Source: Candidatus Uhrbacteria bacterium
Lineage (GTDB): Bacteria; Patescibacteriota; Patescibacteriia; UBA9934; GWF2-40-263
Assembly (NCBI GenBank): GCA_016844925.1
Contig: JAERTI010000043.1
Location: 2,386-66,385 of the forward strand
Length of the DNA: 64,000 nucleotides
Reading direction: 5' to 3'
The notes under the pieces were generated by a model. The model did no database searches, was not told the origin of the DNA, and was given only the letters and a program-made list of their open reading frames with translations. Below, piece after piece: positions 11,957-49,127 of the stretch. The number at the start of each line of letters is the position of its first letter. Position 1 is the first letter of the stretch. The translations under genes were made by a program, and so were the position numbers.

Positions 11957-12511
11957 CTAGACAGAAGCCTCCTGGGATGTCTTGGGTCTACGCCAGCGCA
12001 GCAGCTTGAGCAGCCGCTCATGCGAGATGGCACCAGTGTCCCAGGCGCGAGTGAACCAGTCACCGGCACCTTTGCCACCGAGCAAATATCCCTCAGGACA
12101 CCGCGCTGTTCCTTGTGACCACATTCCTCGAAGAGCGGTTTGGTTCTGTAGCGCCTGCAGCAGATGCGCACGTCGCTCGGGACACGAAGCGTCCCAGATC
12201 TGCAGCAGCGGCGGAAGGAAACGCTGCACTGCCAGAATGGTTCCGGAGATTCTCGCCCTTCGAAAGTTGGCCTTATGCAGGTTCGTCCCGTACAGACGCG
12301 CTTTACGCAGGTCCGCACCATAGAGGTCCGCACCGTACAGGTTCGCACCATACAGGTTCGCCTCAGACAGGTCCGCTCCGCGCAGGTCTGTTCGAGATAG
12401 GTTGAGTTGAACCCCTGGGTTTGCTTTTCGCCAGGTGGCGATGACTCGTTTGCCACCTACGGCCCGGATTTGTTCCATTAGGTTCTTCTTGTTGTACTTC
12501 GTCATGGCCAT
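11957..12511 (-). CDS. pentapeptide-repeat protein (C-terminal subtype 1)
   Basis: A(D/N)LxG repeats, N-terminal ATWRKANPGVQLNL motif, and a C-terminus ISHERLLKLLRWRRPKT that is paralogous to 30643..31386. Confidence 0.7.
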   Translation of the reverse strand: MAMTKYNKKNLMEQIRAVGGKRVIATWRKANPGVQLNLSRTDLRGADLSEANLYGANLYGADLYGADLRKARLYGTNLHKANFRRARISGTILAVQRFLPPLLQIWDASCPERRAHLLQALQNQTALRGMWSQGTARCPEGYLLGGKGAGDWFTRAWDTGAISHERLLKLLRWRRPKTSQEASV

Positions 12512-12557
12512 GGGGCCACCTCTGGTTCACGAGCCTGTTAGCAGGCCGTATGTTGCT

Positions 12558-12700
12558 GTTCCTCCATCTCTCATCTCGACCGGAGTCAAAACAAGGGATG
12601 GAGTCCCGAGCCGTATGCTCGGGCCGTTCCCTCTCAAGTGAATTAGAACTGGTCTTTGTATTACCACGATCCTAATTCCGTCCATGAGATGGGGTGTGGG
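12558..12700 (-). repeat. cassette-boundary element plus an AT-rich hairpin module (GAATCAGAACTGG...CCTGATTC)
   Basis: ctccatctctcatctcgaccggagtcaaaacaagggatggagtcccgagccgtatgctcggg. The extra module also occurs at 25930 and 33070. Confidence 0.7.
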
Positions 12701-12702
12701 AG

Positions 12703-13011
12703 TTACCTTGTGTTCTCAATCAGATACATGGCTGTAAACCAACTAGCACCCGTGAGGATCCAGATGAAGGTGAAAACCCAGCCAATCTTTTTCATGCCCT
12801 TCCAGACAAGATCTGCCACCCCCCAGAAGAGGTAGAAAGAGTTTGCTGTCACCAGTGGGAGCAGTAGTAGTGGAAGGGTCCACTGCTCAGCAACGCTTTT
12901 CTCGTTGATGAACGTGAGCTTGTGCATCTCCAGCACAAGGGTCATGAATCCGACGATGCTCAGCATCATTTGGACACTCACCCAAGCAAGTTCTTTTCGA
13001 TGACGCTTCAT
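12703..13011 (-). CDS. small membrane protein
   Basis: Multiple TM helices. The N-terminal extension in the track ORF is translated repeat sequence. Confidence 0.45.
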   Translation of the reverse strand: MKRHRKELAWVSVQMMLSIVGFMTLVLEMHKLTFINEKSVAEQWTLPLLLLPLVTANSFYLFWGVADLVWKGMKKIGWVFTFIWILTGASWFTAMYLIENTR

Positions 13012-13084
13012 CTCGTGCCTTTCTGCGGCTTGACTGACCGCACCCACCTTGGTCCAATCCAAGGTGGTTTTCTGTTGAAGATCG

Positions 13085-13232
13085 ATTCCTCCATCTCCTC
13101 TCTCGACCGGAGTCAAAACAGAGGATGGAGTCCCGAATCGCGTATTCGATTCAGGATTTCGTGCCCACAGCCGCTGTTCGTGATTCGCCTCTGACCAAGC
13201 TGGTCAATGAACGAACGGGAACGGATGTGGGG
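13085..13232 (-). repeat. cassette-boundary element (hairpin 1, CCCGAATCG hairpin 2, and the CCCACAGCCGCTGTTCG...CGAACGGGAACGGATGTGGG arm)
   Basis: Direct read. The same tripartite unit occurs at 14829-14990 and 28380-28525. Confidence 0.75.
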
Positions 13233-13247
13233 GTTCTTGCGACCGGT

Positions 13248-13709
13248 TTAGTCGCTGTTGCGCATGCGGATGCACACCTCGGGCACATCGGTTGTTGCGC
13301 AGATCGTCACAGATACCTTCTTACCGGTGGCTGCCAGTTCGATGGTGATCGGTGGGAAACGTACGTCATACCCATCGTCAACATCGACGAGAGTTGCTTG
13401 GCAGAACTCCTCGTGAGTGATCGTCTTGATCAGGATCAGGTTCAGTGCCTCCTGAGGAGAGACAAGGATCACGTCGAGTTGATCCAGTCCTGGGCCACCG
13501 TCCTCCATCATCGAGATGTGGGTGGTCAGTTGGCCGTGCGTTGCCCTCAGATCTTCTTCGTTCACACGGATGAAGAAGCCGATGTCCACGCAGATGTCGT
13601 CTCCGAAGATGGCTCCACGCTTGCCAAGGATTTCGAAGACCTCTCCGTTGGTTTTGGCCAGGCCTTCGCCCAGCACAAACGTCCACTTGAATTCACTGTC
13701 CGTCAACAT
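13248..13709 (-). CDS. hypothetical protein
   Basis: 153-aa ORF. A lacO-like palindrome, GTGAGC-N4-GCTCAC, lies upstream at about 13770-13790. Confidence 0.4.
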   Translation of the reverse strand: MLTDSEFKWTFVLGEGLAKTNGEVFEILGKRGAIFGDDICVDIGFFIRVNEEDLRATHGQLTTHISMMEDGGPGLDQLDVILVSPQEALNLILIKTITHEEFCQATLVDVDDGYDVRFPPITIELAATGKKVSVTICATTDVPEVCIRMRNSD

Positions 13710-13854
13710 GACATTCTCCTACGGGTATTCCTCCCCGCAAAGGTCACACGGGTTGTGTGAAATTGTGAGCGAGTGCTCACTAATCCATACGCAAGGATTT
13801 ACGTACGGATCAGTGCTCTCGGTTCATATGAGCTGTGGAGCTTCTGTTTTAGTG

Positions 13855-13985
13855 CTGTTCCTCCATCTCGCGCCTCGACGGCTGTCGAAACAAGGGATGG
13901 AGTCCCGAGCTGCGTGAGCGCTCTAGAGACTCCTTTGCCAGTCTTTTTCCCTGGCAGGGTCTCGAGCCGTGCTCGGGAAGTGGTC
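13855..13985 (-). repeat. cassette-boundary element with the CTCTAGAGACTCC...CTCGAGC...GCTCGGGAAGTGG extension
   Basis: Direct read. The same extension follows the elements at 25060, 30440, 33840, 34600 and 35170. Confidence 0.7.
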
Positions 13986-14031
13986 GCTATTAGCGATAAG
14001 TACCAGGGTTCGTTGTTCCTGGTTCGGTTTT

Positions 14032-14487
14032 TTACTTCTCCTTTTGGAAGTTTGTCTGGTAGCCACAGGCGATGGCGGCCACCAAGATTGAAGGATTGAG
14101 TCCCCAGCAAGTTTCGAGTTCCTTGCAGGTGGCCCACATGGTTGCAGGCTGGTCCAGCGTTGTTTTGCTGAAAGTTGTTTCATACAGGGACGCCCCACTC
14201 AGGTCTGCCTCAGTCAGGTCCGCCCCAATCAGGTCTGCTGCTTCCAGGTCCGCTCCAGCAAGGTTCGCGTCTTTGAGATTTGCCCCGTTCAGACGCGCGG
14301 CACACAAGAATGCTCTTCTCAGGTCTGTCCCACGGAGGTTCGCTCCGCTCAAGATCATCCAACCCATGTTCACCCCAGCCAAGTCTGCATAGGAGAGGTT
14401 TAGTTGGATCCCTGGATTCGCTAGTTGCCAAGCACGGAGGGTTACATTCCCTTTTTTCACAAGGGCGACATGTTCACGATTGGCCAC
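14032..14487 (-). CDS. pentapeptide-repeat protein (C-terminal subtype 2: MWATCKELETCWGL)
   Basis: GTG start giving (M)ANREHVALV, matching paralogs that begin MANxxHVAxV. Confidence 0.65.
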   Translation of the reverse strand: MANREHVALVKKGNVTLRAWQLANPGIQLNLSYADLAGVNMGWMILSGANLRGTDLRRAFLCAARLNGANLKDANLAGADLEAADLIGADLTEADLSGASLYETTFSKTTLDQPATMWATCKELETCWGLNPSILVAAIACGYQTNFQKEK

Positions 14488-14552
14488 AGACCAATCCCCC
14501 TTTCTTCCTGGGTCCACCAGGTTAGTGAGCTTTCGCTCGGGTTGATAAGATC

Positions 14553-14690
14553 TTCCTCCATCTCACCGTCCGTCTTAGACGGCAGGTCAGATGGAGTCCC
14601 GAATCTGCGTTCTAGATTCAGGAATTCGTTTCCCACATGACGCTGCACCTGTAAGGACAGGTACCCAAACGTCTGTGGGTGTGTGTTTGA
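14553..14690 (-). repeat. cassette-boundary element
   Basis: ctccatctcaccgtccgtcttagacggcaggtcagatggagtcccgaatctgcgttctagattcagga. Confidence 0.7.
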
Positions 14691-14828
14691 GTTTGATGAG
14701 CCAGTTCCTGTCCATAGCCATGGACACTCCTTTCTACCGCTTTACGGGCGGCGTTCACAGGGGTTCTAGCTCCTGTGGGTGTGGGTTGTCTCCGGCGTGC
14801 CGGAGTGTGATGAACTTCTGGAGAATCA

Positions 14829-14990
14829 TTCCTCCATCTCAGAGAGCTAGTAGCTGATGGCTAAAAGCTAATCGTTCTCTAGGATAGAGTCCCGAATCGC
14901 GTATTCGATTCAGGAAGTCTCTCCCACAACCGCTGTTCGTGATTCGCCTCTGACCGAGCTGGTCAACGAACGAACGGGAACGGACGTGGG
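14829..14990 (-). repeat. cassette-boundary element; the 14690-14829 interval has no convincing ORF (possible empty cassette)
   Basis: ctccatctcagagagctagtagctgatggctaaaagc...gatagagtcccgaatcgcgtattcgattcagga followed by the CCCACA arm. Confidence 0.65.
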
Positions 14991-15109
14991 ATGTATGTGT
15001 GTTTTTATTCGAGCAGGTCACACGCCTGCGTGAACGTTTTGAAACGGCGCCATCTCAGAAGCTACTTGTGAGAGATAATTCCGTTGTCGCAGATTCAGGT
15101 GAAGTCATT

Positions 15110-15769
15110 TCATGTGCCATCGCCATCGAGTAGGTAGCCTTCCGGACACTTGTCCGTCGCTGTTTTTGACCACAAATCTTGCAGTGCCATACCATGATAG
15201 CGCAAGCTCACGATGAGCTGTCCGCGACGTTCTAGACACAAGCTGTCCCAGAGTTGCAGCAGTGGAGCTAGGAATGTCTTCACATCTAGGATGGTGCCAC
15301 CGATACGAGCATTTTCGAGGTCCGCTCCATTCAGGGCTGCCCCGCTCAGTTTCGCCTCGCGCAGGTCCGCTCCATTCAAGGCTGCCCCGTCCAGTTTCGT
15401 CTCGCGCAAGTCCGCCCTGCGCAGGTCCACCTCATTCAGGGTTGCCCTTTCCAGGTTTGCCATATACAAGTGCGTAGAGCGTAGGTCCGCCCCATTCAGT
15501 TTGGCCTCGCGCAGGTCCGCACCGCTCAGGTACGACCGGGGCATGTACGCACCGCGCAGGTCCGCCTCGCGCAGGTCCGCCTCGCGCAGGTCCACCCCGT
15601 CCAGTTTCGTCTCGCGCAGGTCCGCCCCGCGCAGGTCCGCATTGAACAGGTTGATCGAGTAAAGTTTGGCGCCATGCAGGTCCAGGCGGACCCCTGGGTT
15701 CTCTTCTCGCCACTTTGCAATAGCATCTGTTCTTCGTCGCACCACGGCGACGTGATCAGGATTGGCCAT
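15110..15769 (-). CDS. pentapeptide-repeat protein (subtype 1)
   Basis: Tandem ADLRxxxL repeats, N-terminal KWREENPGVRLDL, C-terminal GTILDVKTFLAPLLQLWDS domain. Confidence 0.7.
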   Translation of the reverse strand: MANPDHVAVVRRRTDAIAKWREENPGVRLDLHGAKLYSINLFNADLRGADLRETKLDGVDLREADLREADLRGAYMPRSYLSGADLREAKLNGADLRSTHLYMANLERATLNEVDLRRADLRETKLDGAALNGADLREAKLSGAALNGADLENARIGGTILDVKTFLAPLLQLWDSLCLERRGQLIVSLRYHGMALQDLWSKTATDKCPEGYLLDGDGT

Positions 15770-15837
15770 GGACCAGAACCCCTTTTCTTCCTGGATCCGC
15801 CAGGCCGGCCAGCAAAGCTGGTGGGTAAAAGATCATT

Positions 15838-15995
15838 CCTCCATCCCAGACAGCTAGTAGCTGATAGCTAACGGCTATAGCTAATCGCTATCTAAGATGG
15901 AGTCCCCGTCCCTCGATGGATAGCGAGGGGACCGGGCAGGCCGAGCCGTAGCGCTCGGGTGTCCCTCCTCTGGGCGGATTCCCAGGGGAGGAGGT
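15838..15995 (-). repeat. cassette-boundary element plus a 3' hairpin CCTCCTCTGGGCGGATTCCCAGGGGAGGAGG
   Basis: Direct read. A homologous 3' hairpin occurs at 31567-31600. Confidence 0.7.
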
Positions 15996-16005
15996 GTTGT
16001 TGAGA

Positions 16006-16539
16006 CTAGCTGTTTGTGCTCTCGGGCTTGTACCCGCCCGCGACAGCGTCAGTGTAGAGGCCGTGGGGAAGTCCCCAACAGGTCTCCAGGTTCTTGCAGG
16101 TGGCCCACATGCTCACAGGTTGGTTCATCTTCGCCCCGGACAGGTTCGCCCCGGACAGATTCGCCCAGGACAGGTTCGCCCCGGACAGGTTCGCCTCGCG
16201 CAGGTCTGCACCGTGCAGGTTCGACCCGGACAGGTTCACCCCGCTCAGGTCCACCTCGTTCAGGTCCGCTTGGCGCAGGTCCGCTTGGCGCAGGTTCGTA
16301 CCGGCCAGGTGTGCCCAGCGCAGGTCTGCACCGTGCAGGTCCGACCCGGACAGGTCGGTACGGGCCAGGTGTGCCCAGCGCAGGTCTGCACCGTGCAGGT
16401 CCGACCCGGATAGGTTCGCCCCGCGCAGGTCTGCACCGCACAGGTCCAGATGGGCTTCCGGGTTCTCGCGCTTCCAGGTGGAGATGACTTTCTTGCCGTT
16501 GCCGGCCTGAATGCCTTCGATGACGTTCTGGATAGTCAT
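16006..16539 (-). CDS. pentapeptide-repeat protein (subtype 2)
   Basis: Start MTIQNVIEGIQ follows the conserved leader gcagagaggagtggccccgtggccATG. Confidence 0.7.
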   Translation of the reverse strand: MTIQNVIEGIQAGNGKKVISTWKRENPEAHLDLCGADLRGANLSGSDLHGADLRWAHLARTDLSGSDLHGADLRWAHLAGTNLRQADLRQADLNEVDLSGVNLSGSNLHGADLREANLSGANLSWANLSGANLSGAKMNQPVSMWATCKNLETCWGLPHGLYTDAVAGGYKPESTNS

Positions 16540-16544
16540 GGCCA

Positions 16545-16770
16545 CGGGGCCACTCCTCTCTGCAGCTTGACTTGCCGCATCCACCTGAGGATTCCAGTCC
16601 TCGGTGGGGTTGTGTGGAAAGATCGTTCCTCCATCTCCTCTCTCGACCGGAGTCGAAACAGGGGATGGAGTCCTGAATCGCGTATCGATTCAGGGGTTGT
16701 CTCCCACCTTCGCTGCTTCCCTTTGCCTCTGACCGAGCTGGTCAACGAGGAAGCTTGAACGAATGTGGGA
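16545..16770 (-). repeat. cassette-boundary element including the conserved 5' leader module (GCAGAGAGGA RBS and CCCCAC...GTGG hairpin)
   Basis: Direct read. Homologous leaders occur at 27490, 30370 and 33770. Confidence 0.7.
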
Positions 16771-16783
16771 TCTGTACACAGTG

Positions 16784-17773
16784 CTATGCCTTTACGGCAA
16801 GCATGTAGTGCTCGCTGATATCCTCTTCGAGGAAGAGAATGTTCTTGGTCCAGGCATCGCCATTGTAGTACAGGTATTCCACACCCCTAGACGTGCTGAA
16901 ACCTGCGCTGTTCTGAGTCTGAAAAATGGTTCCAGCAAACAAGATGCTCGTCATCGGTTCGCTTTTCCATCGCTCAGGAATCAGTTCCGGATGCTCGAGC
17001 AGATGATCCAAGACCCTGGCGTTCAACCACGGCTTATCGACCATGAGTTCAAGAGCTTTTTCAAGTGGTCGCCCAACGTGGGCCTTCATGAAGAAGAGGG
17101 CCATCCCGTTTGAGGTGCACCGGACGATGCCATTGAATCGCTTTTCGTGCTCTGTGAAGCCGTCCCGCTGGCGGCACGGCTTATCTGCATCGACAAGCTC
17201 AACGCGCGTCAGCAGGTCATTGTGTCGGTCGATGAGGATCATGAAATCCCATTGACTCCTGCAAATGCGCACCTCGATCTTGTGAGCGGTCGATCCATCG
17301 AGGTTCATTTCGGGGATCAACTGCACCAGTCCTGGCTGCAACAAAGTGGCTTGAGAGAGCAGTTGTTCCAAAGAGGGAAACTGCATTGAGCCGTGCACCC
17401 AATTTGGACGCGCCGCTGTCTTTGGCTTCTCCATCCGCTCCAGGTGTTGGGACAGAAGTCGGATGGCTGCCACCTCAGAGAGGGTAACGATCAGGTTCAG
17501 TCCCAATGAAGGTGATTTCTCCTCCTTCGACATGCGTGCTTTGACGACGCGATTGAGGACGTCTGCAAACGATTCGAGTTCGAGCAAGGGAGTCCAGCAA
17601 TCAGTTGCCGGTGCATCCCACGGAACTCCCCTGCGAAGGTTCAGTTCACCTGAGGTGTGCAAGAACAAACGTTCTTGTTCGGGGTGATAGAAGCCGCTTG
17701 TCTCGAAGATGGTCCAGACACCCATGCGGTACTTGATGTTTTCCTGAGCACCTGAGAGTGCGCTTTTGAACAT
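16784..17773 (-). CDS. hypothetical protein, paralog family B (ELIPExWK ... FxGTIF motif)
   Basis: AAAGGAGG RBS. A TGTGACA-ggg-catGTCACA palindrome lies just upstream. The C-terminal motif is shared with 19554, 26459 and 33193. Confidence 0.5.
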   Translation of the reverse strand: MFKSALSGAQENIKYRMGVWTIFETSGFYHPEQERLFLHTSGELNLRRGVPWDAPATDCWTPLLELESFADVLNRVVKARMSKEEKSPSLGLNLIVTLSEVAAIRLLSQHLERMEKPKTAARPNWVHGSMQFPSLEQLLSQATLLQPGLVQLIPEMNLDGSTAHKIEVRICRSQWDFMILIDRHNDLLTRVELVDADKPCRQRDGFTEHEKRFNGIVRCTSNGMALFFMKAHVGRPLEKALELMVDKPWLNARVLDHLLEHPELIPERWKSEPMTSILFAGTIFQTQNSAGFSTSRGVEYLYYNGDAWTKNILFLEEDISEHYMLAVKA

Positions 17774-17835
17774 CTGTATCCTCCTTTGTGACATGCCCTG
17801 TCACATGGGCGAGCTTATGCTCGAGTAAAAAGATC

Positions 17836-17935
17836 TTCCTCCATCTCCTCTCTCGACCGGAGTCGAAATAGGGGATGGAGTCCCGAGCGCAAGCGTTCAG
17901 GACCCCGTCTTGGGTCCAAGCCGCTTGGCTCGGGT
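17836..17935 (-). repeat. cassette-boundary element
   Basis: ctccatctcctctctcgaccggagtcgaaataggggatggagtcccgagcgc...gctcggg. Confidence 0.7.
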
Positions 17936-17940
17936 TCGTT

Positions 17941-18663: not shown

Positions 18664-18674
18664 CGACTTTCTCC

Positions 18675-19330: not shown

Positions 19331-19334
19331 AAGG

Positions 19335-19525: not shown

Positions 19526-19553
19526 AACAGCGGTTGTGCTGTTAGTCGTTGGG

Positions 19554-41777: not shown

Positions 41778-41779
41778 AC

Positions 41780-41910: not shown

Positions 41911-41920
41911 AGGAGAAGAG

Positions 41921-42271: not shown

Positions 42272-42294
42272 CGCAACGCGCATACTGGAGGAAG

Positions 42295-42519
42295 ATGTCA
42301 GGACTCAAGCCGGCATTCGGATCCACGAAAGGAAAAGGAAAGCGCTCGCGCGTGCTCAGGCAGAAGCGGCGTGCTGAGATCCCGTTCGACAGAGCGGCGG
42401 ATCGGGCGCTGCGGGCAAATGCCGCGGCACGCGTGGAGGACACGATCGACCCGGAGATCATCGAGCGGTACGGGGGCAGGGCTCCCAGGGTGACCGCCTG
42501 GCGACGGGAAGACGAGTAG
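42295..42519 (+). CDS. small basic protein
   Basis: GGAGGAAG RBS. In the same cassette as 41921..42271. Confidence 0.35.
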   Translation: MSGLKPAFGSTKGKGKRSRVLRQKRRAEIPFDRAADRALRANAAARVEDTIDPEIIERYGGRAPRVTAWRREDE

Positions 42520-42524
42520 AAGGC

Positions 42525-42680
42525 TGGCTGAGGCTAGTCAACGAATACGACCCGAGCGGTCGGTTGCGAGTCTCGCAGCTGCACGCTCGGGACTCCAATG
42601 GAGACGGGCCAAGGGGGCTCGTTTGCTAGGGGTGCCGCAAGGCATTTCCGAAACCCACCATTCAACCTGTAGGAAGGTTT
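42525..42680 (+). repeat. cassette-boundary element
   Basis: gcgagtctcgcagctgcacgctcgggactccaatggag. Confidence 0.65.
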
Positions 42681-42682
42681 GA

Positions 42683-43231
42683 GTGCTGATCAACGCAATC
42701 ATGAACGGCGAAGAGACCCTGTTGGGTCTGGTGAATCAGGACACGCTGGCGTGCGCGGGTGGCGAGTGCGCCGTGGACTACGACACCGAGGGCGAGGACA
42801 TGCCCTTCATCGCCTACGTGGCCAAGCAGATCCTCGACGCCGAGTACTTCGAGGAGTACCCGATCTGTCAGTTGGTGGACATCTACCGCCGACCGATCGA
42901 GCACCTGGACACGTACCTCGAGTGGATCGAGGTGGCCATCACCGACAAGACTGCGTGCCTGATCCTGCGTGCCGCCGCCCTGATGGCCCTCAAGGCCCAG
43001 GCGGAGGATGAGATGGACCGGGAGTACACCCGCACCGAGCCCACGCCCGAGGACTACGGCATCAAGCCGATCCGCAGCGGCATGGGTCCCCGGTATCGCG
43101 GTGTCCCGGACTACATCAAGGACTACGATCCGGAGGACCGCCTCATCATCGACGAGGACGGCAACGAGTTCCGGCTGGCCATGATCAGCTGGAAGGACCT
43201 GGGTCGGTACACGCGGCAGTACGCCGCCTGA
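42683..43231 (+). CDS. hypothetical acidic protein, family C-related (GMGPRYRGVPDYIKDYDP)
   Basis: ORF track. Motif similar to the family C C-terminal motif. Confidence 0.45.
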   Translation: MLINAIMNGEETLLGLVNQDTLACAGGECAVDYDTEGEDMPFIAYVAKQILDAEYFEEYPICQLVDIYRRPIEHLDTYLEWIEVAITDKTACLILRAAALMALKAQAEDEMDREYTRTEPTPEDYGIKPIRSGMGPRYRGVPDYIKDYDPEDRLIIDEDGNEFRLAMISWKDLGRYTRQYAA

Positions 43232-43234
43232 ACA

Positions 43235-43390
43235 ACGGGGGCGCTCCCCACGCCGGGGAGCGCCCGCCCGAGCGAGTCCCACGACTTGCTCGGGACTCCA
43301 TCTTGCTTCTCGATTTGATCGAGCGGCGGGATGGAGCACAGTGGTAGAGCTCCTTGGGCTGGCATGGTGCCGGTCTGGTGTCGAGGTAAT
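43235..43390 (+). repeat. cassette-boundary element (GGGGCGCTCCCC-acgc-CGGGGAGCGCCC 3' hairpin, then CTCGGGACTCCATC...GGATGGAG)
   Basis: Direct read. Confidence 0.7.
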
Positions 43391-43394
43391 CGAC

Positions 43395-43634
43395 ATGACC
43401 AAGTCTGATTTGAAGGATGTGCTGGAAAATCTGTTTTGCCTGGTGGCTGCTGCCATCATGCTGGGTTGTTGGGCGACACTCTCGCTTGATGATGCTGTGT
43501 GGGGATTGGCCATTGGGGCAGCGACCTTTCCTTTCTTCATCGTGCTTGTGCGTTTCCTGAGCGCAGACAGCTCCAAGGCGGATCCTGGAACCGGCGCTGA
43601 AGGAGTTCCGCAGGTGGAAAAGCCTTCGGTCTGA
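43395..43634 (+). CDS. small membrane protein
   Basis: Start MTKSDLKD. 2 TM helices. Confidence 0.35.
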   Translation: MTKSDLKDVLENLFCLVAAAIMLGCWATLSLDDAVWGLAIGAATFPFFIVLVRFLSADSSKADPGTGAEGVPQVEKPSV

Positions 43635-43639
43635 AAAAA

Positions 43640-43815
43640 AGAAACGCCCGAGCCGTAGCGCTCAGGACTCATCGAGCCAAGCTCGAGACGGAAGTCCTTC
43701 GCAGCAGCTACGCACGCGCTCGGGACTCCATCGTTTGGCTCGACACGATCGAGACAAACGATGGAGCACAGTGGTAAAGCTCCTTGGACCGGGATTCCCT
43801 CGGTCTGGCTATAGG
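43640..43815 (+). repeat. cassette-boundary element
   Basis: cgctcgggactccatcgtttggctcgacacgatcgagacaaacgatggagcacagtggtaaagctcc. Confidence 0.7.
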
Positions 43816-43826
43816 TGGTCATTCAA

Positions 43827-44081
43827 ATGACCCATGACAACCCTCTGAACAATGTCCCGCAGCGGATCACTGAGATCAGCAAGATGCCTCCGGGCTTCAA
43901 GCGTGATGAAGCCATCGATTCGCTTCGCATCTTCCTCGCACAGACCGTCTCGGTCGCGAGGCTCTGCCTGGCAGAGCTCGACGCAGCACTGCTGCCTCAG
44001 AGTGATCGTCCCGAACGGATGGTCGTGCCGGCACTGTCTGAGTTCTGCAGGACCTCCGAGTGGATTCGGGATCCCAAGTGA
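43827..44081 (+). CDS. hypothetical small protein (first gene of a coupled pair)
   Basis: Stop overlaps the next start in a GTGA arrangement. Confidence 0.35.
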   Translation: MTHDNPLNNVPQRITEISKMPPGFKRDEAIDSLRIFLAQTVSVARLCLAELDAALLPQSDRPERMVVPALSEFCRTSEWIRDPK

Positions 44082-44491
44082 GCACATTCGTTTTCGTGGT
44101 CTTTGTCTCGTCTGAGCGAGTGAAGGCGACGGTTGTGCGGGTGACTGCCGCTGAACCAAAGGACGATGTGCGGCTTCGTGGTCGTGCCGTCGAGGTTCTG
44201 GTGGACGACACTTGGCATGAGATCGGGGTGGATGACGAGGAGGGAGGCATGTTGGGCACACAGCTCATCCGAGCCTTTTCCTCCAGTGGCCGAGCAGGTC
44301 ACTTCATCTTCAATCACCTTGGGCTGGACACCTACACCACACGCGATGGGACAATTTACCGTTGCGGTGGAAGGCACATGCCCAAGATCACTGATCTGAC
44401 GCTCGGTCTCCTCAAGGCGGCGGAGCGGATCAAGTGGCAAGAGCAGCAGGCTGCGCGAAAGCGGCAGCAAGAAGACGACCCGAGCGAGTAG
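44078..44491 (+). CDS. hypothetical protein (second gene of the coupled pair)
   Basis: GTG start overlapping the TGA of the upstream gene. Confidence 0.4.
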   Translation: MSTFVFVVFVSSERVKATVVRVTAAEPKDDVRLRGRAVEVLVDDTWHEIGVDDEEGGMLGTQLIRAFSSSGRAGHFIFNHLGLDTYTTRDGTIYRCGGRHMPKITDLTLGLLKAAERIKWQEQQAARKRQQEDDPSE

Positions 44492-44645
44492 CGCTCACGT
44501 CTCCACACTGGAGGCCTTAGAAGCAGCTACGCACGCGCTCGGGACTCCATCTGACGTTTCGATACGGTCGAGACATCAGATGGAGCACAGTGGTAAAGCT
44601 CCACAAACGGCCTCAGGACGCGGGTTCCGTATTCCTGTGAAGGTC
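44485..44645 (+). repeat. cassette-boundary element
   Basis: cgctcgggactccatctgacgtttcgatacggtcgagacatcagatggagcacagtggtaaagctcc. Confidence 0.7.
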
Positions 44646-44647
44646 TG

Positions 44648-44890
44648 ATGTTCGAGTATCTCATGGCAGGGCCATGGTTTGGTGAGCACAGAATCGATCC
44701 CATGTGGATCAGGCAGCAGATCGTTCGAACGCTCTTGCTTCCCAAGGGCGATCTTCGTCAGTGGAGCCTCGGAGAGATCCGCAAGGAACTGACGGCTGCG
44801 CGTGATGATTGCGACAGGCTCCTGCAAGAGCTTGAAGAAGCTATCGCGGCAGATACCGAGAAGTCTGCGGCTACAGGTGACTCGGCATGA
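44648..44890 (+). CDS. hypothetical small protein (coupled via an ATGA overlap to 44887..45102)
   Basis: ORF track. Stop/start overlap with the next gene. Confidence 0.35.
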   Translation: MFEYLMAGPWFGEHRIDPMWIRQQIVRTLLLPKGDLRQWSLGEIRKELTAARDDCDRLLQELEEAIAADTEKSAATGDSA

Positions 44891-45102
44891 GCGGTGACAA
44901 GCCCACGCTGCCCGCCCCCAAGCTCAACCTCGGGGACCTGATCAACATGTTCTACGAGGAGTACCTGGCGCTCTACCAGGATGAAGACGTTGCCTCCGTG
45001 GCTGCCGCCGCGACGATCAACAACATCCTGCGCGACGCCGACGAGAGGGATCTGCAGATCGAACGGTCTCCAGCGCCCAAAAAAGAAACGCCCGAGCCGT
45101 AA
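44887..45102 (+). CDS. small protein, family D (ASVAAAATINNIL motif)
   Basis: Paralog of 45286..45507 and 45603..45839. Confidence 0.4.
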   Translation: MSGDKPTLPAPKLNLGDLINMFYEEYLALYQDEDVASVAAAATINNILRDADERDLQIERSPAPKKETPEP

Positions 45103-45285
45103 CGCTCAGGACTCATCGAGCCAAGCTCGACACGGAAGTCCTTCGCAGCAGCTACGTACGCGCTCGGGACTCCATCCCGCGTTTCGACGAGTTCGAGATG
45201 TGAGATGGGGAAACCCAACCTGGTCTCTAGGCCTCTGACCTAGATAAAAACGGGAATCCTCCCGTTTGAACAGACTACGAGCAAC
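45085..45285 (+). repeat. cassette-boundary element plus an AAACGGGAATCCTCCCGTTT hairpin about 20 nt before the next start
   Basis: Direct read. The same pre-start hairpin occurs at 48395-48420. Confidence 0.65.
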
Positions 45286-45507
45286 ATGACTGATTCAAAA
45301 CAGTCGACCGATTCAAGTGGAACTGGTCTGGGGGTTCTTATCACTATGTTCTTTAACGAGTTCATGGAGATGTACGGAGACGAAGAGCTCGCCAGCGTTG
45401 CCACTGCCGCTGTGATCAACGACCTTCTTGTGGATGCTCGGGAGGAAGAAGAGCAGCACGCAAAGAACACGCACGGCAAAGATGTGAAGGGCACAAAGCA
45501 GAACTAG
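45286..45507 (+). CDS. small protein, family D
   Basis: LITMFFNEFMEMYGDEELASVATAAVINDLL. Confidence 0.4.
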   Translation: MTDSKQSTDSSGTGLGVLITMFFNEFMEMYGDEELASVATAAVINDLLVDAREEEEQHAKNTHGKDVKGTKQN

Positions 45508-45509
45508 CA

Positions 45510-45600
45510 TTCTGATCCTTCGCTCGACAAAGTCGCACTGTACGAGTGCGGCCTCCATCCGACATCTTGAGTAAAGTATTCGAGGTGTGAGATGGAGGAA
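45510..45600 (+). repeat. hairpin element CCTCCATCCGACATC...GTGTGAGATGGAGG
   Basis: Direct read. Confidence 0.55.
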
Positions 45601-45602
45601 GT

Positions 45603-45839
45603 GTGAAGCAAGGTAAAGGCGAGAGCCTCGAGCCTCTGATCACGCTGTGGTACGACACGTACTTTGCGTTGTTCGGAGAGGGAAGCGAGGAGTTGGCGTC
45701 GGTGGCTGCTGCGGCAACCATCAACAACATCCTTGCGGACAGAGAAAAGCAGAAAAAGGTCGAGGATGCTCTGCGGCTCGTAAGGGAACACGCCGAGCCG
45801 TCGACCAGCGACGACGAGAGGGGTTCGGGGCACAACTAG
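45603..45839 (+). CDS. small protein, family D
   Basis: LITLWYDTYFALFGEGSEELASVAAAATINNIL. Confidence 0.4.
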   Translation: MKQGKGESLEPLITLWYDTYFALFGEGSEELASVAAAATINNILADREKQKKVEDALRLVREHAEPSTSDDERGSGHN

Positions 45840-45891
45840 TGCCTCGGGCCTCGCCTAGCAACAACGCCCCAACATCAAAAGGAGGTGTCTC

Positions 45892-46092
45892 ATGGGCAAG
45901 AAGAAGGGGAAGCGCAGCCAGCCGGTTGTGCCCAAGAAGAAGGACGATGGCACGATTGTCATCAAGCGGGAGGATCTCCCGAAGGAGCGGGGGGCTCCCA
46001 TCCCCCGTGGGCAGCGGTTTCACACCCGCAACCGTGACATCCGTCGCGGATCCCGGCGTCACCCTAAGCACAAGGGCCGGCGCGAAGATTAA
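45892..46092 (+). CDS. very basic small protein
   Basis: AAAGGAGGTG RBS. K/R-rich. Confidence 0.35.
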   Translation: MGKKKGKRSQPVVPKKKDDGTIVIKREDLPKERGAPIPRGQRFHTRNRDIRRGSRRHPKHKGRRED

Positions 46093-46094
46093 CC

Positions 46095-46190
46095 CCAACC
46101 TCACGGAGGTACCGATGTATACGTACATCAACGGAGCCGTGCTGAACGAGTACGGCTTCCCATCTGAGTTTTCGAATGATCGTAGGTTCG
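46095..46190 (+). repeat. hairpin element of type A (CCCATCT...GGATGGG)
   Basis: cccatctgagttttcgaatgatcgtaggttcggatggg. Confidence 0.5.
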
Positions 46191-46233
46191 GATGGGAATC
46201 AACCCGACACCCCAAAGGAGGTATCTGGGGAAC

Positions 46234-47046
46234 ATGACAGAGCAGGAGCGGCATCGCTCAAACAACGAGACGGAGCAGCGGCTGAGGGCTGCGTCGAAGT
46301 CGATCAGGGAGGCCTGGGACGACTTTCTGGAGAGCCATCCCTCTTATACGGAAGAGACCGTACTGGAGTATGGACTTTCGTACAGCGTCTATCGGCGCGA
46401 AGTGGACCTGCGTTGCCTGGACTTGATCCAGGTGGATATGGGGCACAGTTTCTTCCTGCCAGATTGTCTTGTGGAGTTCAATCGGTGGGGCCATACCAGC
46501 CTTCTCGATGCGATCATGACCAACATCGAGTTTCGGACCTGTGTGTTCGAACGCGTGTCGTTTGCGGGCGCTGACCTGCGCGGAGCAGAGTTTCGCTCGT
46601 GTGACCTGTTCTTCGTCGATTTTCAGGAGGCGAACCTTGAGCGCGCCAACCTGGAGCGACTGAACCTGGAGATGTGTTGGTTCAAGGGAGCCAACCTGGA
46701 GATGGCGAACATTCGTCAGACCATTCTCGAGGAAGCCTACTGGTTGCCAGCACTTCTGCTGCTCTGGCGCCCGATGGATTCTCGTGAGCGGCTCTACTAC
46801 GCACGGGAGCTCATGCGCTTTCGGCGGAAGGTCCGCTGGGGAACCAATGGGGCTGATCCGTACGATGTCCGTGGCGACAAACCACAGAACGTGGACGACT
46901 TTCGTCGCTATTCAGCGGTTCACGACAACGTGTTCGAGCGAGCGTGGAGAACGCATGGGATTACCCCCGCGCAGGTGGTATCCGCACTGAAGCGTTACGC
47001 TCCAGGAACCCTGACCCGAACGGCCAGGAAGATCTTTCTCGGGTGA
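46234..47046 (+). CDS. pentapeptide-repeat-containing protein
   Basis: AAAGGAGG RBS and start MTEQERHRS. Central ADLRGAEF / ANLERANLERLNLE repeats. Confidence 0.5.
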   Translation: MTEQERHRSNNETEQRLRAASKSIREAWDDFLESHPSYTEETVLEYGLSYSVYRREVDLRCLDLIQVDMGHSFFLPDCLVEFNRWGHTSLLDAIMTNIEFRTCVFERVSFAGADLRGAEFRSCDLFFVDFQEANLERANLERLNLEMCWFKGANLEMANIRQTILEEAYWLPALLLLWRPMDSRERLYYARELMRFRRKVRWGTNGADPYDVRGDKPQNVDDFRRYSAVHDNVFERAWRTHGITPAQVVSALKRYAPGTLTRTARKIFLG

Positions 47047-47049
47047 CGA

Positions 47050-47180
47050 CCCAACAAATACGTAACGAGAGCTGTGCAGTGACTCCGTTAGGCCACACGG
47101 GCCGACGTTGAGACCGAGCACAGCTTCCTCTCTGGCTTCTCGAGTTCGCTCGAGAGGTGAGACAGGATCTTGAACCGGAG
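47050..47180 (+). repeat. type B element (ACGAGAGCTGTGC...GAGCACAGCTTCCTCTC...), which contains GTTAGGC
   Basis: Direct read. Three copies occur, at 47050, 49655 and 50640. Confidence 0.6.
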
Positions 47181-47185
47181 TTCTT

Positions 47186-47611
47186 ATGACCCCTGACCAG
47201 ACGCTGGCAGTGCTGCTAGGTCTGCTTGTCGTGGTGGTGTGCGCAGGTGCGCATACGTGGTACCGCGGCTGGCGACTGCACCAGAAATCCTTCAGGAGGG
47301 CGCACTACGCGCATGTGATCCTGGATGGATCACGGATGCTCAACCGCACACACGGGTACCTCGCGTATCCGCAAGTCTACTTGTGCCCAATCTTCAAGAT
47401 CGGGTGGGAGGATGGCTACGCGTGCGTGCAGTACATGGAGGGCAGAGCGGTCGTAGATCCAGATCGATACGACGCCGAGCTCGGCGGTGAGCTCTACTTC
47501 TTCAACGATGGAGAGTGCACCCACCACGTACTCGTCGGTCACCAGATCGACGTGAAGCTCTTCTATCGGCAGCTCGGCTGCCACAGACTCAGCGCCCGCA
47601 TCGCGCTGTGA
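47186..47611 (+). CDS. hypothetical protein with an N-terminal TM helix
   Basis: ORF track. Confidence 0.4.
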   Translation: MTPDQTLAVLLGLLVVVVCAGAHTWYRGWRLHQKSFRRAHYAHVILDGSRMLNRTHGYLAYPQVYLCPIFKIGWEDGYACVQYMEGRAVVDPDRYDAELGGELYFFNDGECTHHVLVGHQIDVKLFYRQLGCHRLSARIAL

Positions 47612-47614
47612 CAA

Positions 47615-47705
47615 CGGCTCAGCTGTGCCCCGACTCCCGATGACGACCATCGGTCGAGTCGCCGCACAGCTTCCCATCTTACGGATTGATCAATGTGATC
47701 GAGCT
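47615..47705 (+). repeat. type A hairpin element (CCCATCTTACGGATTGATC...GATCGAGCTGTGAGATGGG)
   Basis: Direct read. Four copies precede consecutive genes. Confidence 0.6.
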
Positions 47706-47745
47706 GTGAGATGGGACGTAGATCATTTTAGTTAGCCACAAGGAA

Positions 47746-48258
47746 GTGGCAGAAAGGGAACACGTGGAAACGATTCCTGTGACAGAGATCGGGGATGCTG
47801 TGATTGTGGTGTTGATGATTCTCTTCATCCTGCTTCAGGCTGGAGTCCTCGATGTCTTGGAGCCAGTCGCTCACTGCCTCGAGAGGAAGTGGCGAGGGGT
47901 TCCGATCCTGCATGTACGCTTCCTGGACGGTGTGCCAGTGTCCGCGGAAGTGACAATCGTCTGGAGCTGCGAGGATCTCAGCTACTCCCGCAACAACGTG
48001 GCAGACTTCGAGCATGTCGCTCTGGTGGTTCGGTACCACAACAAAGGCATGCTGGATGTGCAGGCCAAGTTCGGAGAAGAGGTTCTCGTGTCCCCCCTGT
48101 GGGATGTGAGCAACCCAAGGCACACGGTCGAGTACGGGCGTTTCAAGCACCTCCTGCTTGTGTGTCCAAGTCGGGAGCATGCCGAGTCATTCAGTGAGTC
48201 GTTCGGGCTCTCTGAGATTCTCGGAACAGAACAGCTTCCCGACAAGGTGAAGCCCTAA
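47746..48258 (+). CDS. hypothetical protein (strand uncertain; the antisense ORF 47728..48180 is also open)
   Basis: GTG start after AAGGAAG. GC-rich, with both frames open. Confidence 0.3.
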   Translation: MAEREHVETIPVTEIGDAVIVVLMILFILLQAGVLDVLEPVAHCLERKWRGVPILHVRFLDGVPVSAEVTIVWSCEDLSYSRNNVADFEHVALVVRYHNKGMLDVQAKFGEEVLVSPLWDVSNPRHTVEYGRFKHLLLVCPSREHAESFSESFGLSEILGTEQLPDKVKP

Positions 48259-48289
48259 CGACGAACGGCTGTGGCAGTGTTTCCCGGTA

Positions 48290-48430
48290 GCGCACCGGTT
48301 GAGATGTTGTCACGGCCGCCCATCTTACGGATTGATCAGAAGGATCGAGTCGTGAGATGGGGAAACCCAACTCGGTCTCTAGGCCAGTGTCCTAGATAAA
48401 GGCGGGAATCCTCCCGTTTGAACAGACCAA
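48290..48430 (+). repeat. type A hairpin element plus the AAAGGCGGGAATCCTCCCGTTT pre-start hairpin
   Basis: Direct read. Confidence 0.6.
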
Positions 48431-48437
48431 AGATGCC

Positions 48438-49127
48438 ATGGGAAACATGACCCATATGCTCCTGCTGCTGGACGGAAAGGATCGTCTCAATAGGTGGATG
48501 GCTGAGAATCCTGGAGAGGAACTGGATTATCAGCGCGCGACACTGAGGGGCATTGATCTGGAGTTCATGAAGCTCCGTGCCACCTTTGTCCGCGCAGATC
48601 TGACGGGCGCCCGGCTGAAAGGTACGGATCTGACAGCGGCAGACATGCGGTCCTGCAGACTCGGTGGCGCTGACCTCACAGATGCCAACCTTCGCGGTCT
48701 GAGCCTTTCAGGTGCCTACATGCCGCACGCCCGTCTCGATGGTGCGTGCTTGGTCGACGTAGATTTCCGTGGAGCGTCTTGCTACGGCGTGAGTCTCCAT
48801 GGGGCTGATCTGACGGGAACCATCCTCGATCTGAACCAGTGGGGAGCCGCCCTTCTCGATCGCTGGGATCGTGCGACGCAGCTTCAGCGCAGGTACATCA
48901 TGCCCATCCTCAGGCAGGCAGATCAGATTCGTATCTCGCCAGATGAGAATCAAAACCCGTGGACGAGAAATGGGTTGTTCCTCGCCAGGGATGACAGCTT
49001 CTCTCAGATGTGGAGCACCCGCGCTCTTAAGATACAGCTCTTCCTGGACTTCCTCTGGAAACATCGTGAGAATGATCTGCGGGCCATCGGGTTCAACGCT
49101 TGTCCTCAGGAGATCCCCTTGCACTAG
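48438..49127 (+). CDS. pentapeptide-repeat protein (subtype 1 C-terminal domain)
   Basis: LNRWMAENPGEELDY N-terminal motif and GTILDLNQWGAALLDRWD C-terminal domain. Confidence 0.6.
   Translation: MGNMTHMLLLLDGKDRLNRWMAENPGEELDYQRATLRGIDLEFMKLRATFVRADLTGARLKGTDLTAADMRSCRLGGADLTDANLRGLSLSGAYMPHARLDGACLVDVDFRGASCYGVSLHGADLTGTILDLNQWGAALLDRWDRATQLQRRYIMPILRQADQIRISPDENQNPWTRNGLFLARDDSFSQMWSTRALKIQLFLDFLWKHRENDLRAIGFNACPQEIPLH

What the first reader, a model, noticed from the sequence alone, without database searches (positions are those of the whole stretch)
11957..49127. Expansion of at least 15 pentapeptide-repeat cassette proteins with a shared N-terminal W-x3-(N/H)P(G)-x-x-L-(D/N)-L motif and two alternative C-terminal domains
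Twelve PRPs lie in array 1 and three in array 2. Nearly all begin with a helix (HVAxV..G..AI) followed by W(R/K)xxNPG(V/I)xL(D/N)L before the A(D/N)LxG repeats. One subgroup (11957, 15110, 23197, 30643, 48438) ends with a GTILxxxxFLxPLLxxWD domain. Another (14032, 16006, 18830, 34008) ends with MWATCKxLETCWGL...A(A/C)GY. PRPs of the Qnr, MfpA and AlbG type act as DNA mimics that protect gyrase, and qnrVC genes are classic integron cassettes. A diversifying PRP repertoire held in a cassette array may be an immunity or anti-toxin reservoir.
Basis: partly seen in the sequence, partly recalled or inferred. Interest (0 to 1): 0.7.

Follow-up and report, generated by a model that had tools for sequence, protein, structure and literature searches.

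The report
Pentapeptide-repeat protein expansion in cassette arrays
Fifteen small pentapeptide-repeat (beta-helix) proteins, many carrying a very rare C-terminal domain, sit in two strain-variable, repeat-bounded gene arrays of an uncultivated Parcubacteria (CPR) bacterium; they are real and unusual in number, they are not Qnr/MfpA-type gyrase protectors by any test available here, and their function is unknown.

Summary
Fourteen ORFs pass Pfam PF00805 and a fifteenth is sub-threshold, 12 in array 1 and 3 in array 2. Two AlphaFold models (pLDDT 89 and 94) give right-handed quadrilateral beta-helices with a two-helix N-cap. Both C-terminal groups are real, and each gains one member (46192; 35308).

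The N-terminal motif is not special. Qnr and MfpA models score 38 and 47 bits against cut-offs of 240 and 360. The helices are uninterrupted, range from about 3 to 7 coils, and pI runs from 4.7 to 10.7.

What is new is the rarity of C-terminal domain A: 19 clusters among 1.84 billion representatives. Five of these come from this window and two from a sister genome's array. Domain B was seen only here.

The host is a Parcubacteria MAG. The arrays lie at conserved hotspots (recA|rodZ and ftsK|rpoB) and vary from 0 to about 30 units between relatives. Units are bounded by a covarying hairpin that resembles attC but is non-canonical, and no integrase is present in the window.

The most likely role is a set of modular binding or decoy scaffolds acting in antagonistic interactions. 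This is inferred, not shown.

The parts
10960..35700 (-). Array 1: about 30 same-orientation units between recA (9219-10247) and the rodZ-like gene (36000-36689). Each unit is preceded by the conserved repeat ...CCCGAGC-n-GCTCGGGACTCCATC-[variable hairpin]-GATGGAGGAA.
   Evidence: synteny and variable size in relatives
39958..50240 (+). Array 2: about 13 units between ftsK (36702-39482) and the rpoB region. There are eight repeats of the same core, then five of a second hairpin type (45546, 47665, 48311, 49211, 50188).
   Evidence: counterparts in L064, L130, L134, L162
11957..12511 (-). PRP, 184 aa. N-module WRKANPGVQLNL, about 14 pentapeptides, C-terminal domain A (subtype A1); pI 10.7, net +17.
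   Evidence: (model pLDDT 89)
14032..14517 (-). PRP, 161 aa (likely start GTG at 14487, giving MANREHVALV). N-module WQLANPGIQLNL, C-terminal module B.
15110..15769 (-). PRP, 219 aa. N-module WREENPGVRLDL, about 29 pentapeptides with 45- and 60-nt internal tandem duplications. Domain A is truncated after CPEGYLLDGDGT.
16006..16584 (-). PRP, 192 aa ORF (likely start ATG at 16539, 177 aa). N-module WKRENPEAHLDL, exact 20-aa coil duplication, C-terminal module B.
   Evidence: (model pLDDT 94.4)
18830..19330 (-). PRP, 166 aa. Degenerate N-module (WMSRRAEGSFDL) and a divergent module B (MWARTLNLEFAKNL...AAGY).
20379..20678 (-). Weak, short PRP-like ORF, 99 aa. No N-module and no C-module.
   Evidence: Pentapeptide_4 24.6 bits, below the cut-off of 38
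22605..23102 (-). PRP, 165 aa ORF (likely start at MTKEELL, 23057). N-module WRSEHPKETLDL; ends within the repeats, with no C-module.
23197..23904 (-). PRP, 235 aa. Degenerate N-module (WKRKHRGKPMNL), an insert of about 50 aa, a short helix, and domain A subtype A2 with the tail DLRALGHNTCPEVI.
30643..31386 (-). PRP, 247 aa. N-module WREAHPGIQLDL, about 27 pentapeptides, domain A (A1). The identical protein occurs in SRR13374099 and SRR13374101.
34008..34514 (-). PRP, 168 aa. N-module WKEANPDKKINL, C-terminal module B.
34730..35095 (-). PRP, 121 aa. Degenerate N-module (WKSEHGERNLNL), no C-module. It shares a 167-nt upstream leader (96% identical) with the 34008 unit.
   Evidence: (D9)
35308..35685 (-). 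PRP, 125 aa. No clear N-motif; divergent module B (QWVHCRRLNWADWLP...EMGY).
40074..40544 (+). PRP, 156 aa. YRDTNPDD variant of the N-motif, a 60-nt (one coil) tandem repeat array, no C-module.
   Evidence: (D15)
46192..47046 (+). PRP, 284 aa. Long N-terminal extension and a divergent domain A (TILEEAYWLPALLLLWR...FERAWRTHGIT).
   Evidence: P0271 is a 270-aa near-identical variant
48438..49127 (+). PRP, 229 aa. N-module WMAENPGEELDY, domain A subtype A2 with the tail DLRAIGFNACPQEI.

Best explanation
Shown: the window comes from a Parcubacteria-group (CPR/Patescibacteria) chromosome. Two hotspots, recA|rodZ and ftsK|rpoB, carry arrays of single-gene units bounded by a conserved, covarying hairpin repeat, and array content differs between relatives. 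One third of the units encode small, signal-peptide-less PRPs built from three modules. The first is a two-helix N-cap that is generic to a large PRP subfamily. The second is an uninterrupted right-handed quadrilateral beta-helix of 12-29 pentapeptides, whose length changes by whole-coil (60-nt) tandem duplication. The third is one of two C-terminal modules, or none: a roughly 90-aa all-helical domain A that is extremely rare worldwide, or a roughly 35-aa cap B seen only here. The two N-cap variants occur with both C-modules, so the modules have been recombined.

Inferred: these proteins act without catalysis, as stoichiometric binding or decoy scaffolds. The beta-helix would serve as a rigid surface or spacer of variable length, and the C-module as the partner-binding or oligomerising end. 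The array would hold them as an exchangeable, diversifying accessory repertoire used in antagonistic interactions of an episymbiont, such as immunity to toxins, or defence or anti-defence against phage. They are not Qnr/MfpA-type proteins.
Against: No functional evidence of any kind exists. There were no PADLOC hits, and none of the other roughly 30 array ORFs tested has a recognisable toxin, defence or partner domain. Domain-A PRPs outside this lineage are single genes in ordinary housekeeping neighbourhoods with no conserved partner, which would fit a housekeeping or regulatory role equally well. Expression is unknown, and no promoter signal above chance was found. Several copies look decayed (15110 truncated, 20379 weak). 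No recombinase was found, so mobility of the units is inferred only from comparison of relatives.
Confidence: 0.45

Rival explanations
1. One reading: the PRPs are Qnr/MfpA/AlbG-like DNA mimics that bind gyrase or topoisomerase IV, and together form an immunity reservoir against topoisomerase poisons.
Against: NCBIfam scores are far below cut-off: Qnr NF033086 reaches at most 37.9 bits against 240, MfpA NF000349 at most 46.6 against 360, and every Qnr subfamily model scores below 40 bits against 425-500. The best sequence and structure matches are cyanobacterial Rfr-type PRPs, not the topoisomerase protectors. The helices run uninterrupted in register, so there are no Qnr loops A or B. Helix length ranges from about 3 to 7 coils, and some members are strongly basic (11957 net +17, 30643 +6, 34730 +5). 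No mfpB-like GTPase or toxin biosynthesis gene lies in the arrays.
Confidence: 0.1
2. The PRPs are host-directed effectors of an episymbiotic CPR cell. They would be delivered to or displayed towards the host, like the beta-helix effectors PipB2, SopA and NleL, and the arrays would be a variable effector repertoire.
Against: No signal peptide or recognisable secretion signal is visible in the N-termini. The N-module is shared with PRPs of free-living phyla. The effector matches are confined to the generic repeat region and lie far below the family cut-offs.
Confidence: 0.15
3. There is no specific selected role. PRP-coding units multiply inside the arrays by duplication, slippage and recombination of their periodic DNA, and then decay, so the expansion is a by-product of array dynamics.
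For: Internal 15/45/60-nt tandem repeats are present. Leaders are shared between units (D9, D10, D19). Truncated or weak copies exist (15110, 20379, and the copies lacking a C-module). Three identical tandem units occur in a relative's array (L130).
Against: Paralogues are old (at most about 47% identity), yet they keep intact ORFs, conserved N- and C-module residues and confidently folding helices. The same rare domain-A PRPs recur in the array of a sister genome and in a related strain. Domain A is conserved across phyla.
Confidence: 0.15

Closest known systems
Qnr / MfpA / AlbG / McbG topoisomerase-protecting PRPs
   Same: Right-handed quadrilateral beta-helix of tandem A(D/N)LXX repeats; small cytoplasmic proteins; qnrVC occurs as an integron cassette.
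   Different: They fail all curated family models by about 200-450 bits. They have no loops A or B and a different N-cap. The C-terminus is not the MfpA/Qnr dimerisation helix but either a 90-aa helical domain or a 35-aa cap. Length and charge are far more variable.
Cyanobacterial Rfr-type PRPs (Rfr32 2G0Y, Np275/276 2J8K, All3740 3DU1, Alr5209, HetL)
   Different: Scores are below the equivalog cut-offs. The N-cap and C-terminal modules differ, the genes are array-borne, and the host is a CPR bacterium with a small genome.
Widespread 'YjbI/COG1357' PRPs that start MANxEHLxxLKQGVxxWNxWRxENPxxxPDLS
   Same: The window's N-module is the same module. It also occurs in the Bryobacteraceae domain-A homologue and within phrog_923.
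   Different: Only a tiny fraction of these carry domain A (19 clusters in 1.84 billion). None seen carried module B.
Sedentary chromosomal integrons / CALIN (attC arrays without integrase)
   Same: Arrays of same-orientation, mostly single-ORF units. An imperfect hairpin repeat with invariant 7-bp outer boxes and a covarying inner stem lies between ORFs. Content varies between strains, and most cargo is of unknown function.
   Different: No IntI lies in 64 kb. The boxes are CTCCATC/GATGGAG rather than RYYYAAC/GTTRRRY. A second conserved palindrome (CCCGAGC...GCTCGGG) abuts the hairpin. The host phylum has no integron report in the searched library. Whether any recombinase acts on these sites is unknown.
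Phage-encoded PRPs (phrog_7713, phrog_923; V. cholerae phage 24 gp60 anti-Sucellos)
   Same: Small PRPs, often with assorted C-terminal modules such as PF19062. At least one acts as an anti-defence protein.
   Different: Only the repeat region and N-cap match. No viral model shares the full architecture (TMq at most 0.38). The window is cellular chromosome (recA, ftsK, rpoBC).

Membership tests
Pentapeptide repeat family (Pfam PF00805) | Tandem A(D/N)LXX pentapeptides scoring above the Pfam gathering threshold | tested here: met
   14 of 15 score 50-144 bits against a cut-off of 20.2. 20379 is sub-threshold.
Pentapeptide repeat family (Pfam PF00805) | Right-handed quadrilateral beta-helix fold | tested here: met
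Qnr family (NCBIfam NF033086 and subfamilies, including QnrVC) | Score above the curated family cut-off | tested here: not met
   Best 37.9 bits against 240 for NF033086; QnrVC at most 34.6 against 460 (10 of 15 proteins tested).
Qnr family (NCBIfam NF033086 and subfamilies, including QnrVC) | Loops A and B interrupting the helix; length of about 214-218 aa | tested here: not met
   In-register chains of 12-29 pentapeptides have no breaks, and the models show regular strands. Lengths are 99-284 aa. The loop requirement is from my knowledge of the Qnr structures.
Qnr family (NCBIfam NF033086 and subfamilies, including QnrVC) | Protection of gyrase or topo IV from quinolones | not testable with these tools
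   Needs biochemistry or MIC assays.
MfpA (NCBIfam NF000349) | Score above the cut-off; an adjacent mfpB-type GTPase | tested here: not met
   Best 46.6 bits against 360. No GTPase or any Pfam family occurs in neighbouring array ORFs.
Integron gene-cassette array | Integron integrase (IntI, a tyrosine recombinase) next to the array | tested here: not met
   No Phage_integrase or other recombinase hit appeared in any larger non-array ORF or in the large ORFs lying antisense within array 2 (40740-41789, 42662-43822). One could lie elsewhere in the genome, as in a CALIN.
Integron gene-cassette array | attC sites: an imperfect hairpin with R''/R' boxes RYYYAAC...GTTRRRY | tested here: inconclusive
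   The hairpin with invariant outer boxes and a covarying inner stem is present. The boxes read CTCCATC/GATGGAG, matching 5 of 7 consensus positions by my reading, and lack the AAC/GTT triplet. The IntegronFinder attC model was not available.
Integron gene-cassette array | Cassette content that varies between related genomes at a fixed site | tested here: met
   Array 1 has 0, about 4, about 5 or about 30 units in relatives with conserved flanks. L003 differs immediately beyond window position 10621.
PRP with C-terminal domain A (no curated family) | TILDPxxW...LW...R...L..AL...(C/S)PE...DxFTxAWDTxGI helical domain after the last coil | tested here: met
   Six window proteins align with P0002-P0006. 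The profile search recovers only 19 clusters. There is no Pfam, PDB or BFVD counterpart.

The most novel reading that the evidence does not exclude
The two arrays would be a CPR-specific, integron-like cassette system that uses non-canonical attC-type hairpins (CTCCATC/GATGGAG boxes) and an unidentified recombinase or natural transformation. Its dominant cargo would be a diversifying repertoire of modular PRPs with otherwise almost unknown C-terminal domains. These would serve as exchangeable decoy or immunity proteins protecting an obligate episymbiont's essential machinery from host or phage toxins.
Probability: 0.15. Interest if true: 0.8.

Novelty: new variant of a known kind. Interest (0 to 1): 0.5.

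Why it matters
PRPs are abundant, but outside the gyrase-protecting few their function is largely unknown. This locus offers a natural series of 15 modular variants with different helix lengths, surfaces and C-terminal modules, in a genome of probably about 1 Mb. It holds a quarter of the known diversity of a very rare C-terminal domain. The genes also sit in strain-variable, repeat-bounded arrays in a phylum where I found no report of cassette systems. If the arrays are mobile and the PRPs are decoys or immunity factors, this would extend both the integron concept and PRP biology to CPR episymbionts. If not, it remains a well-defined new PRP subfamily for structural and binding studies.

Tried and rejected
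- **Genome scan with a repeat 14-mer.** Only L064 was a true relative, and it is labelled Gammaproteobacteria, so probably mis-binned.
- **Finding the source record.** The NCBI record of the 261.5-kb source contig could not be retrieved. Taxonomy was taken from cluster names instead.
- **Homologue search with full-length type B proteins.** Generic PRPs swamped the result. Module B was seen only in the window's own proteins, but this is a weak negative because only the best 120 of 7313 hits were listed.
- **N-module search.** It returned only proteins of 90 aa or less, apparently through a length filter. It shows that the module is widespread but gives few taxon names.
- **Rfam.** Both the gathering and the permissive thresholds found nothing at the repeats.
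- **Promoter and terminator scan.** Nothing exceeded chance.
- **Defence and phage libraries.** PADLOC gave no hits. PHROGs matched only repeat-region families of unknown function.
- **afdb50 fold library.** It was unavailable.
- **Possible shared tail motif.** The A2 tail LRALGHxxCPxxI resembles a stretch of the 11109/25186 family, but the match is not significant (E = 0.07 for a single comparison).
- **Neighbourhoods of domain-A singletons.** In other organisms they show no common partner.


Full report
**Layout of the window.** Pfam identifies housekeeping genes at both ends and in the middle:
- ychF at 3044-4207
- an EpmA-like class II synthetase paralogue at 6861-7796
- recA at 9219-10247 (minus strand)
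- a RodZ-like HTH protein at 36000-36689 (minus strand)
- ftsK at 36702-39482 (minus strand)
- rpoB at 53776-57033 and rpoC at 56993-61072
- yebC and ruvC at 61808-63000
- tRNA-Gly and tRNA-Pro at 63032-63184

Between them lie two blocks of short, same-orientation ORFs. Array 1 spans about 10960-35700 with genes on the minus strand. Array 2 spans about 39958-50240 with genes on the plus strand.

The 13-mer GATGGAGTCCCGA, allowing up to 2 mismatches, occurs 38 times. Chance predicts 2.9 occurrences, and 0 of 100 shuffles reached 38. It is always in gene orientation.

**Check of the observation.** A six-frame screen found five more, plus one weak candidate.

Pfam PF00805 is above its gathering score in 14 ORFs, at 50-144 bits against a cut-off of 20.2. 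ORF 20379-20678 reaches only sub-threshold Pentapeptide_3/_4 scores.

Alignments confirm the two C-terminal groups. They add 46192 to group A and a divergent 35308 to group B.

The N-terminal region is a short helix, a turn, then a second helix ending in W-(R/K)-x-x-(N/H)-P-x4-L-(D/N)-L. It is clear in ten proteins and degenerate in three or four. It is missing in 20379, 35308 and 46192.

PRPs are the only products of either array with any Pfam family. About 30 other array ORFs were scanned and none has one.

**Fold.** AlphaFold2 was run on small alignments and gave confident models.
- Type A (11957): pLDDT 89, pTM 0.82. Helices at 5-18 and 20-30, strands every five residues from 35 to 90, then an all-helical domain at 95-182.
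- Type B (16006 from its likely ATG): pLDDT 94.4. Two N-terminal helices, a beta-helix from 30 to 140, and a small cap of about 35 residues.

**The N-terminal motif is generic.** A profile of the window's N-modules retrieved 309 proteins at E of 10 or less. Of the 120 best, 94 carry WNxWR or W-x3-(N/H/D)-P, and 86 begin MANxEH(V/L). A typical example is MANEEHVALLKQGVEVWNKWREENPDIRPDLSEADL.

Named sources include Ktedonobacteraceae. The Bryobacteraceae domain-A homologue HUI78338.1 has the motif as well. The large phage family phrog_923 aligns across it.

The motif marks a widespread PRP N-cap, not something specific to this locus. No solved structure contains it by sequence.

An exhaustive profile search of 1.84 billion cluster representatives found only 19 clusters with domain A.
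- Five are this window's own proteins.
- Two (P0275, P0277) are adjacent genes in array 1 of the sister MAG GCA_013204395.1.
- The rest are proteins of 124-270 aa from scattered metagenomes.

All but two of the 19 keep the architecture N-cap, then PRP, then domain A. P0280 has a transmembrane helix and domain A without repeats. P0278 (124 aa) looks like a fragment.

Two subtypes can be seen. A1 has the motif CPEGYLLG...DxFTxAWDT. A2 has an extra tail, DLRxLGHxxCPxxI.

Outside this lineage the genes are singletons in unremarkable neighbourhoods with no recurring partner.

Module B was seen only in the window's own proteins among the listed hits. This is a weak negative.

**Organism and the arrays.** RecA and RpoB fall in 90%-identity clusters named 'Parcubacteria group bacterium'. 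The rpoC here lacks the trigger-loop insertion typical of Proteobacteria (my reading of the translation).

A metagenome scan with the repeat pattern, followed by protein comparisons, shows a conserved backbone: epmA, recA, [array 1], rodZ, ftsK, [array 2], rpoB.

Array 1 varies widely between relatives:
- It is absent in L130 and L162.
- It has about five units and no PRP in L138.
- It has four units, two of them domain-A PRPs, in GCA_013204395.1.
- It has about thirty units here.

L003 encodes a 100% identical RecA, and its DNA is 96% identical up to window position 10621. Beyond that point it carries a different unit, a 318-aa domain-A PRP.

So the arrays are strain-variable, and domain-A PRPs are recurrent cargo in this lineage. 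They are not universal cargo.

**The repeat.** In gene orientation each unit is preceded by an imperfect palindrome (CCCGAGC...GCTCGGG, with covarying variants such as GAATCG...CGATTC). This is followed directly by a hairpin with invariant 7-bp boxes, CTCCATC and GATGGAG, and a variable inner stem.

Across 21 copies the 19-bp hairpin shows:
- 89.7% of cells paired, against 39-50% when partners are slid
- nine pairs with changes on both sides
- 31 double-change cells, against 10.1 in shuffles (0 of 500 as high)
- two conserved mismatches

This design resembles attC: structure conserved over sequence, with fixed outer boxes. However, the boxes are not RYYYAAC/GTTRRRY. No integrase or other recombinase is present in the 64 kb, and Rfam has nothing at the repeats. 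I therefore call the arrays cassette-like and do not file them as an integron.

**Relation to Qnr, MfpA and AlbG.** Ten of the PRPs were scanned with NCBIfam. The Qnr family model reaches at most 37.9 bits against a cut-off of 240. MfpA reaches at most 46.6 against 360. All Qnr subfamily models, QnrVC included, stay below 40 bits against cut-offs of 425-500. The top hits are the cyanobacterial Alr5209 and HetL models, also below their cut-offs.

The helices run uninterrupted in register for 12-29 pentapeptides, roughly 3-7 coils, so there are no Qnr loops. Predicted pI ranges from 4.7 to 10.7, and 11957 has a net charge of +17. No GTPase or toxin-pathway gene accompanies them.

Working like a DNA mimic cannot be excluded for the acidic members. 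Membership in these families is refuted.

**How the family diversifies.** Pairwise identity is at most about 47%, so the copies are old.

Tandem Repeats Finder detects 45- and 60-nt duplications inside 15110, 16006 and 40074. 16006 contains an exact 20-residue duplication, which is one full coil. Helix length therefore changes in whole-coil steps that keep the four faces in register.

Two N-helix variants exist, MANxEHVAxV and MTxxxLxAQIRxxGGKxAI. Each occurs with both domain A and module B, which indicates recombination between modules.

Leader sequences upstream of the start codons are shared among PRP and non-PRP units (families D9, D10 and D19). They belong to the unit architecture rather than to the PRPs.

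**Most likely function.** Nothing here shows function. The features are:
- three separable modules
- no catalytic motif
- no conserved partner gene
- a rigid helix of variable length and variable surface
- recurrent residence in strain-variable arrays
- known PRP roles that all rest on binding or mimicry: gyrase protection (established knowledge), HetL (my knowledge), and a phage anti-defence PRP

From these I consider non-catalytic binding or decoy scaffolds used in antagonistic interactions the best reading, with a confidence of 0.45. The architectural and contextual part is solid. The functional part is inference.

The rivals are gyrase protection (0.10), host-directed effectors (0.15), and a non-adaptive by-product of array dynamics (0.15).

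The finding is a new variant of a known kind: canonical PRPs with a generic N-cap, but with one very rare and one apparently lineage-restricted C-terminal module. They have multiplied to 15 copies inside cassette-like arrays of a CPR bacterium. Interest is moderate (0.5). The array system itself may deserve separate study.

Noticed in passing
window 10960-35700 and 39958-45230 (e.g. 34597-34672, 19405-19480): The inter-unit repeat has a palindrome, CCCGAGC-n-GCTCGGG, abutting a 19-bp hairpin with invariant CTCCATC/GATGGAG boxes, a covarying inner stem and two conserved mismatches. It resembles attC in design but not in consensus. No Rfam family matches and no integrase lies in the window. It may be a recombination site or a structured RNA leader.
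   Followed up: partly
window 45546-45596, 47665-47715, 48311-48361, 49211-49261, 50188-50238: The distal half of array 2 uses a second hairpin repeat type (CCCATCTnACnGnTTGATC...GATCGAGnTGTGAGATGGG). It shares only the CCATC/GATGG core with the main repeat, and it flanks PRPs 46192 and 48438.
   Followed up: no
recA|rodZ and ftsK|rpoB junctions; L130, L134, L138, L162, L165/L166, L064: Both arrays sit at fixed hotspots in a conserved backbone (epmA-recA-[array 1]-rodZ-ftsK-[array 2]-rpoB). Array 1 ranges from absent to about 30 units among relatives.
   Followed up: yes
window 20801-22381, 24576-25055, 40785-41777; L064 4067-5425; L130 5885-7198; L138 4930-6135: A family of acidic, W/C/E/D-rich proteins recurs in the arrays of several relatives. 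In the window copies 20801 and 40785 they end in a basic motif, RGPQWAKxxPGxNPRxPxRxKFDxR, which occurs twice in 40785. No Pfam family matches.
   Followed up: partly
window 16784-17794, 19554-20237, 26459-27022, 33193-33765; and 11109-11795, 25186-25848: Two further groups of array ORFs appear related. One shares a motif of the form ELIPExWK...(F/V)FxGT. The other shares KNPWxxxxTWRT; its two members are 33% identical with E = 3e-15. Neither has a Pfam family.
   Followed up: partly
window 13824-13990, 34566-34732, 35144-35310; 16554-16646, 27494-27586, 30373-30465: Long upstream leader modules (up to 167 nt, up to 96% identical) are shared between units with unrelated ORFs. Some contain a further conserved hairpin of the form CCACC-stem-TGGA-stem-GGTGG.
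   Followed up: no
L130 11298-13080: Three identical tandem copies of one unit encoding a 105-aa membrane protein occur at 594-nt spacing in a relative's array 2. This is either a recent unit amplification or an assembly artefact.
   Followed up: no
L064 (CAZIDX010000006.1): This contig is labelled 'uncultured Gammaproteobacteria bacterium', yet it carries the CPR-type ftsK (77-83% amino-acid identity) and the same array repeat. It is probably mis-binned or mislabelled.
   Followed up: partly
window 36702-36940 and 38433-38590: FtsK carries long Glu/Asp-rich low-complexity stretches, seen as GAA/GAG-type triplet repeats on the coding strand.
   Followed up: no
window 15485-15871, 15952-16413, 30892-31131, 35131-35748 (strand opposite to the PRP genes): Long antisense ORFs translating as QVRPGQVR... 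lie opposite the PRP genes. They are by-products of the 15-nt periodicity and should not be annotated as genes.
   Followed up: yes
window 46192-47046 versus P0271: A near-identical 270-aa variant from another sample differs by about 10 substitutions clustered within about 40 N-terminal residues, and by only about 1 elsewhere. This suggests a local recombination tract or a hypervariable patch.
   Followed up: no
window 23197-23260, 48438+ (tails) and 11109-11795: The A2 tail (DLRALGHNTCPEVI) weakly resembles KALGLDLCPAEVGP in the 11109/25186 family. E = 0.07 for a single comparison, so the match is not significant.
   Followed up: partly
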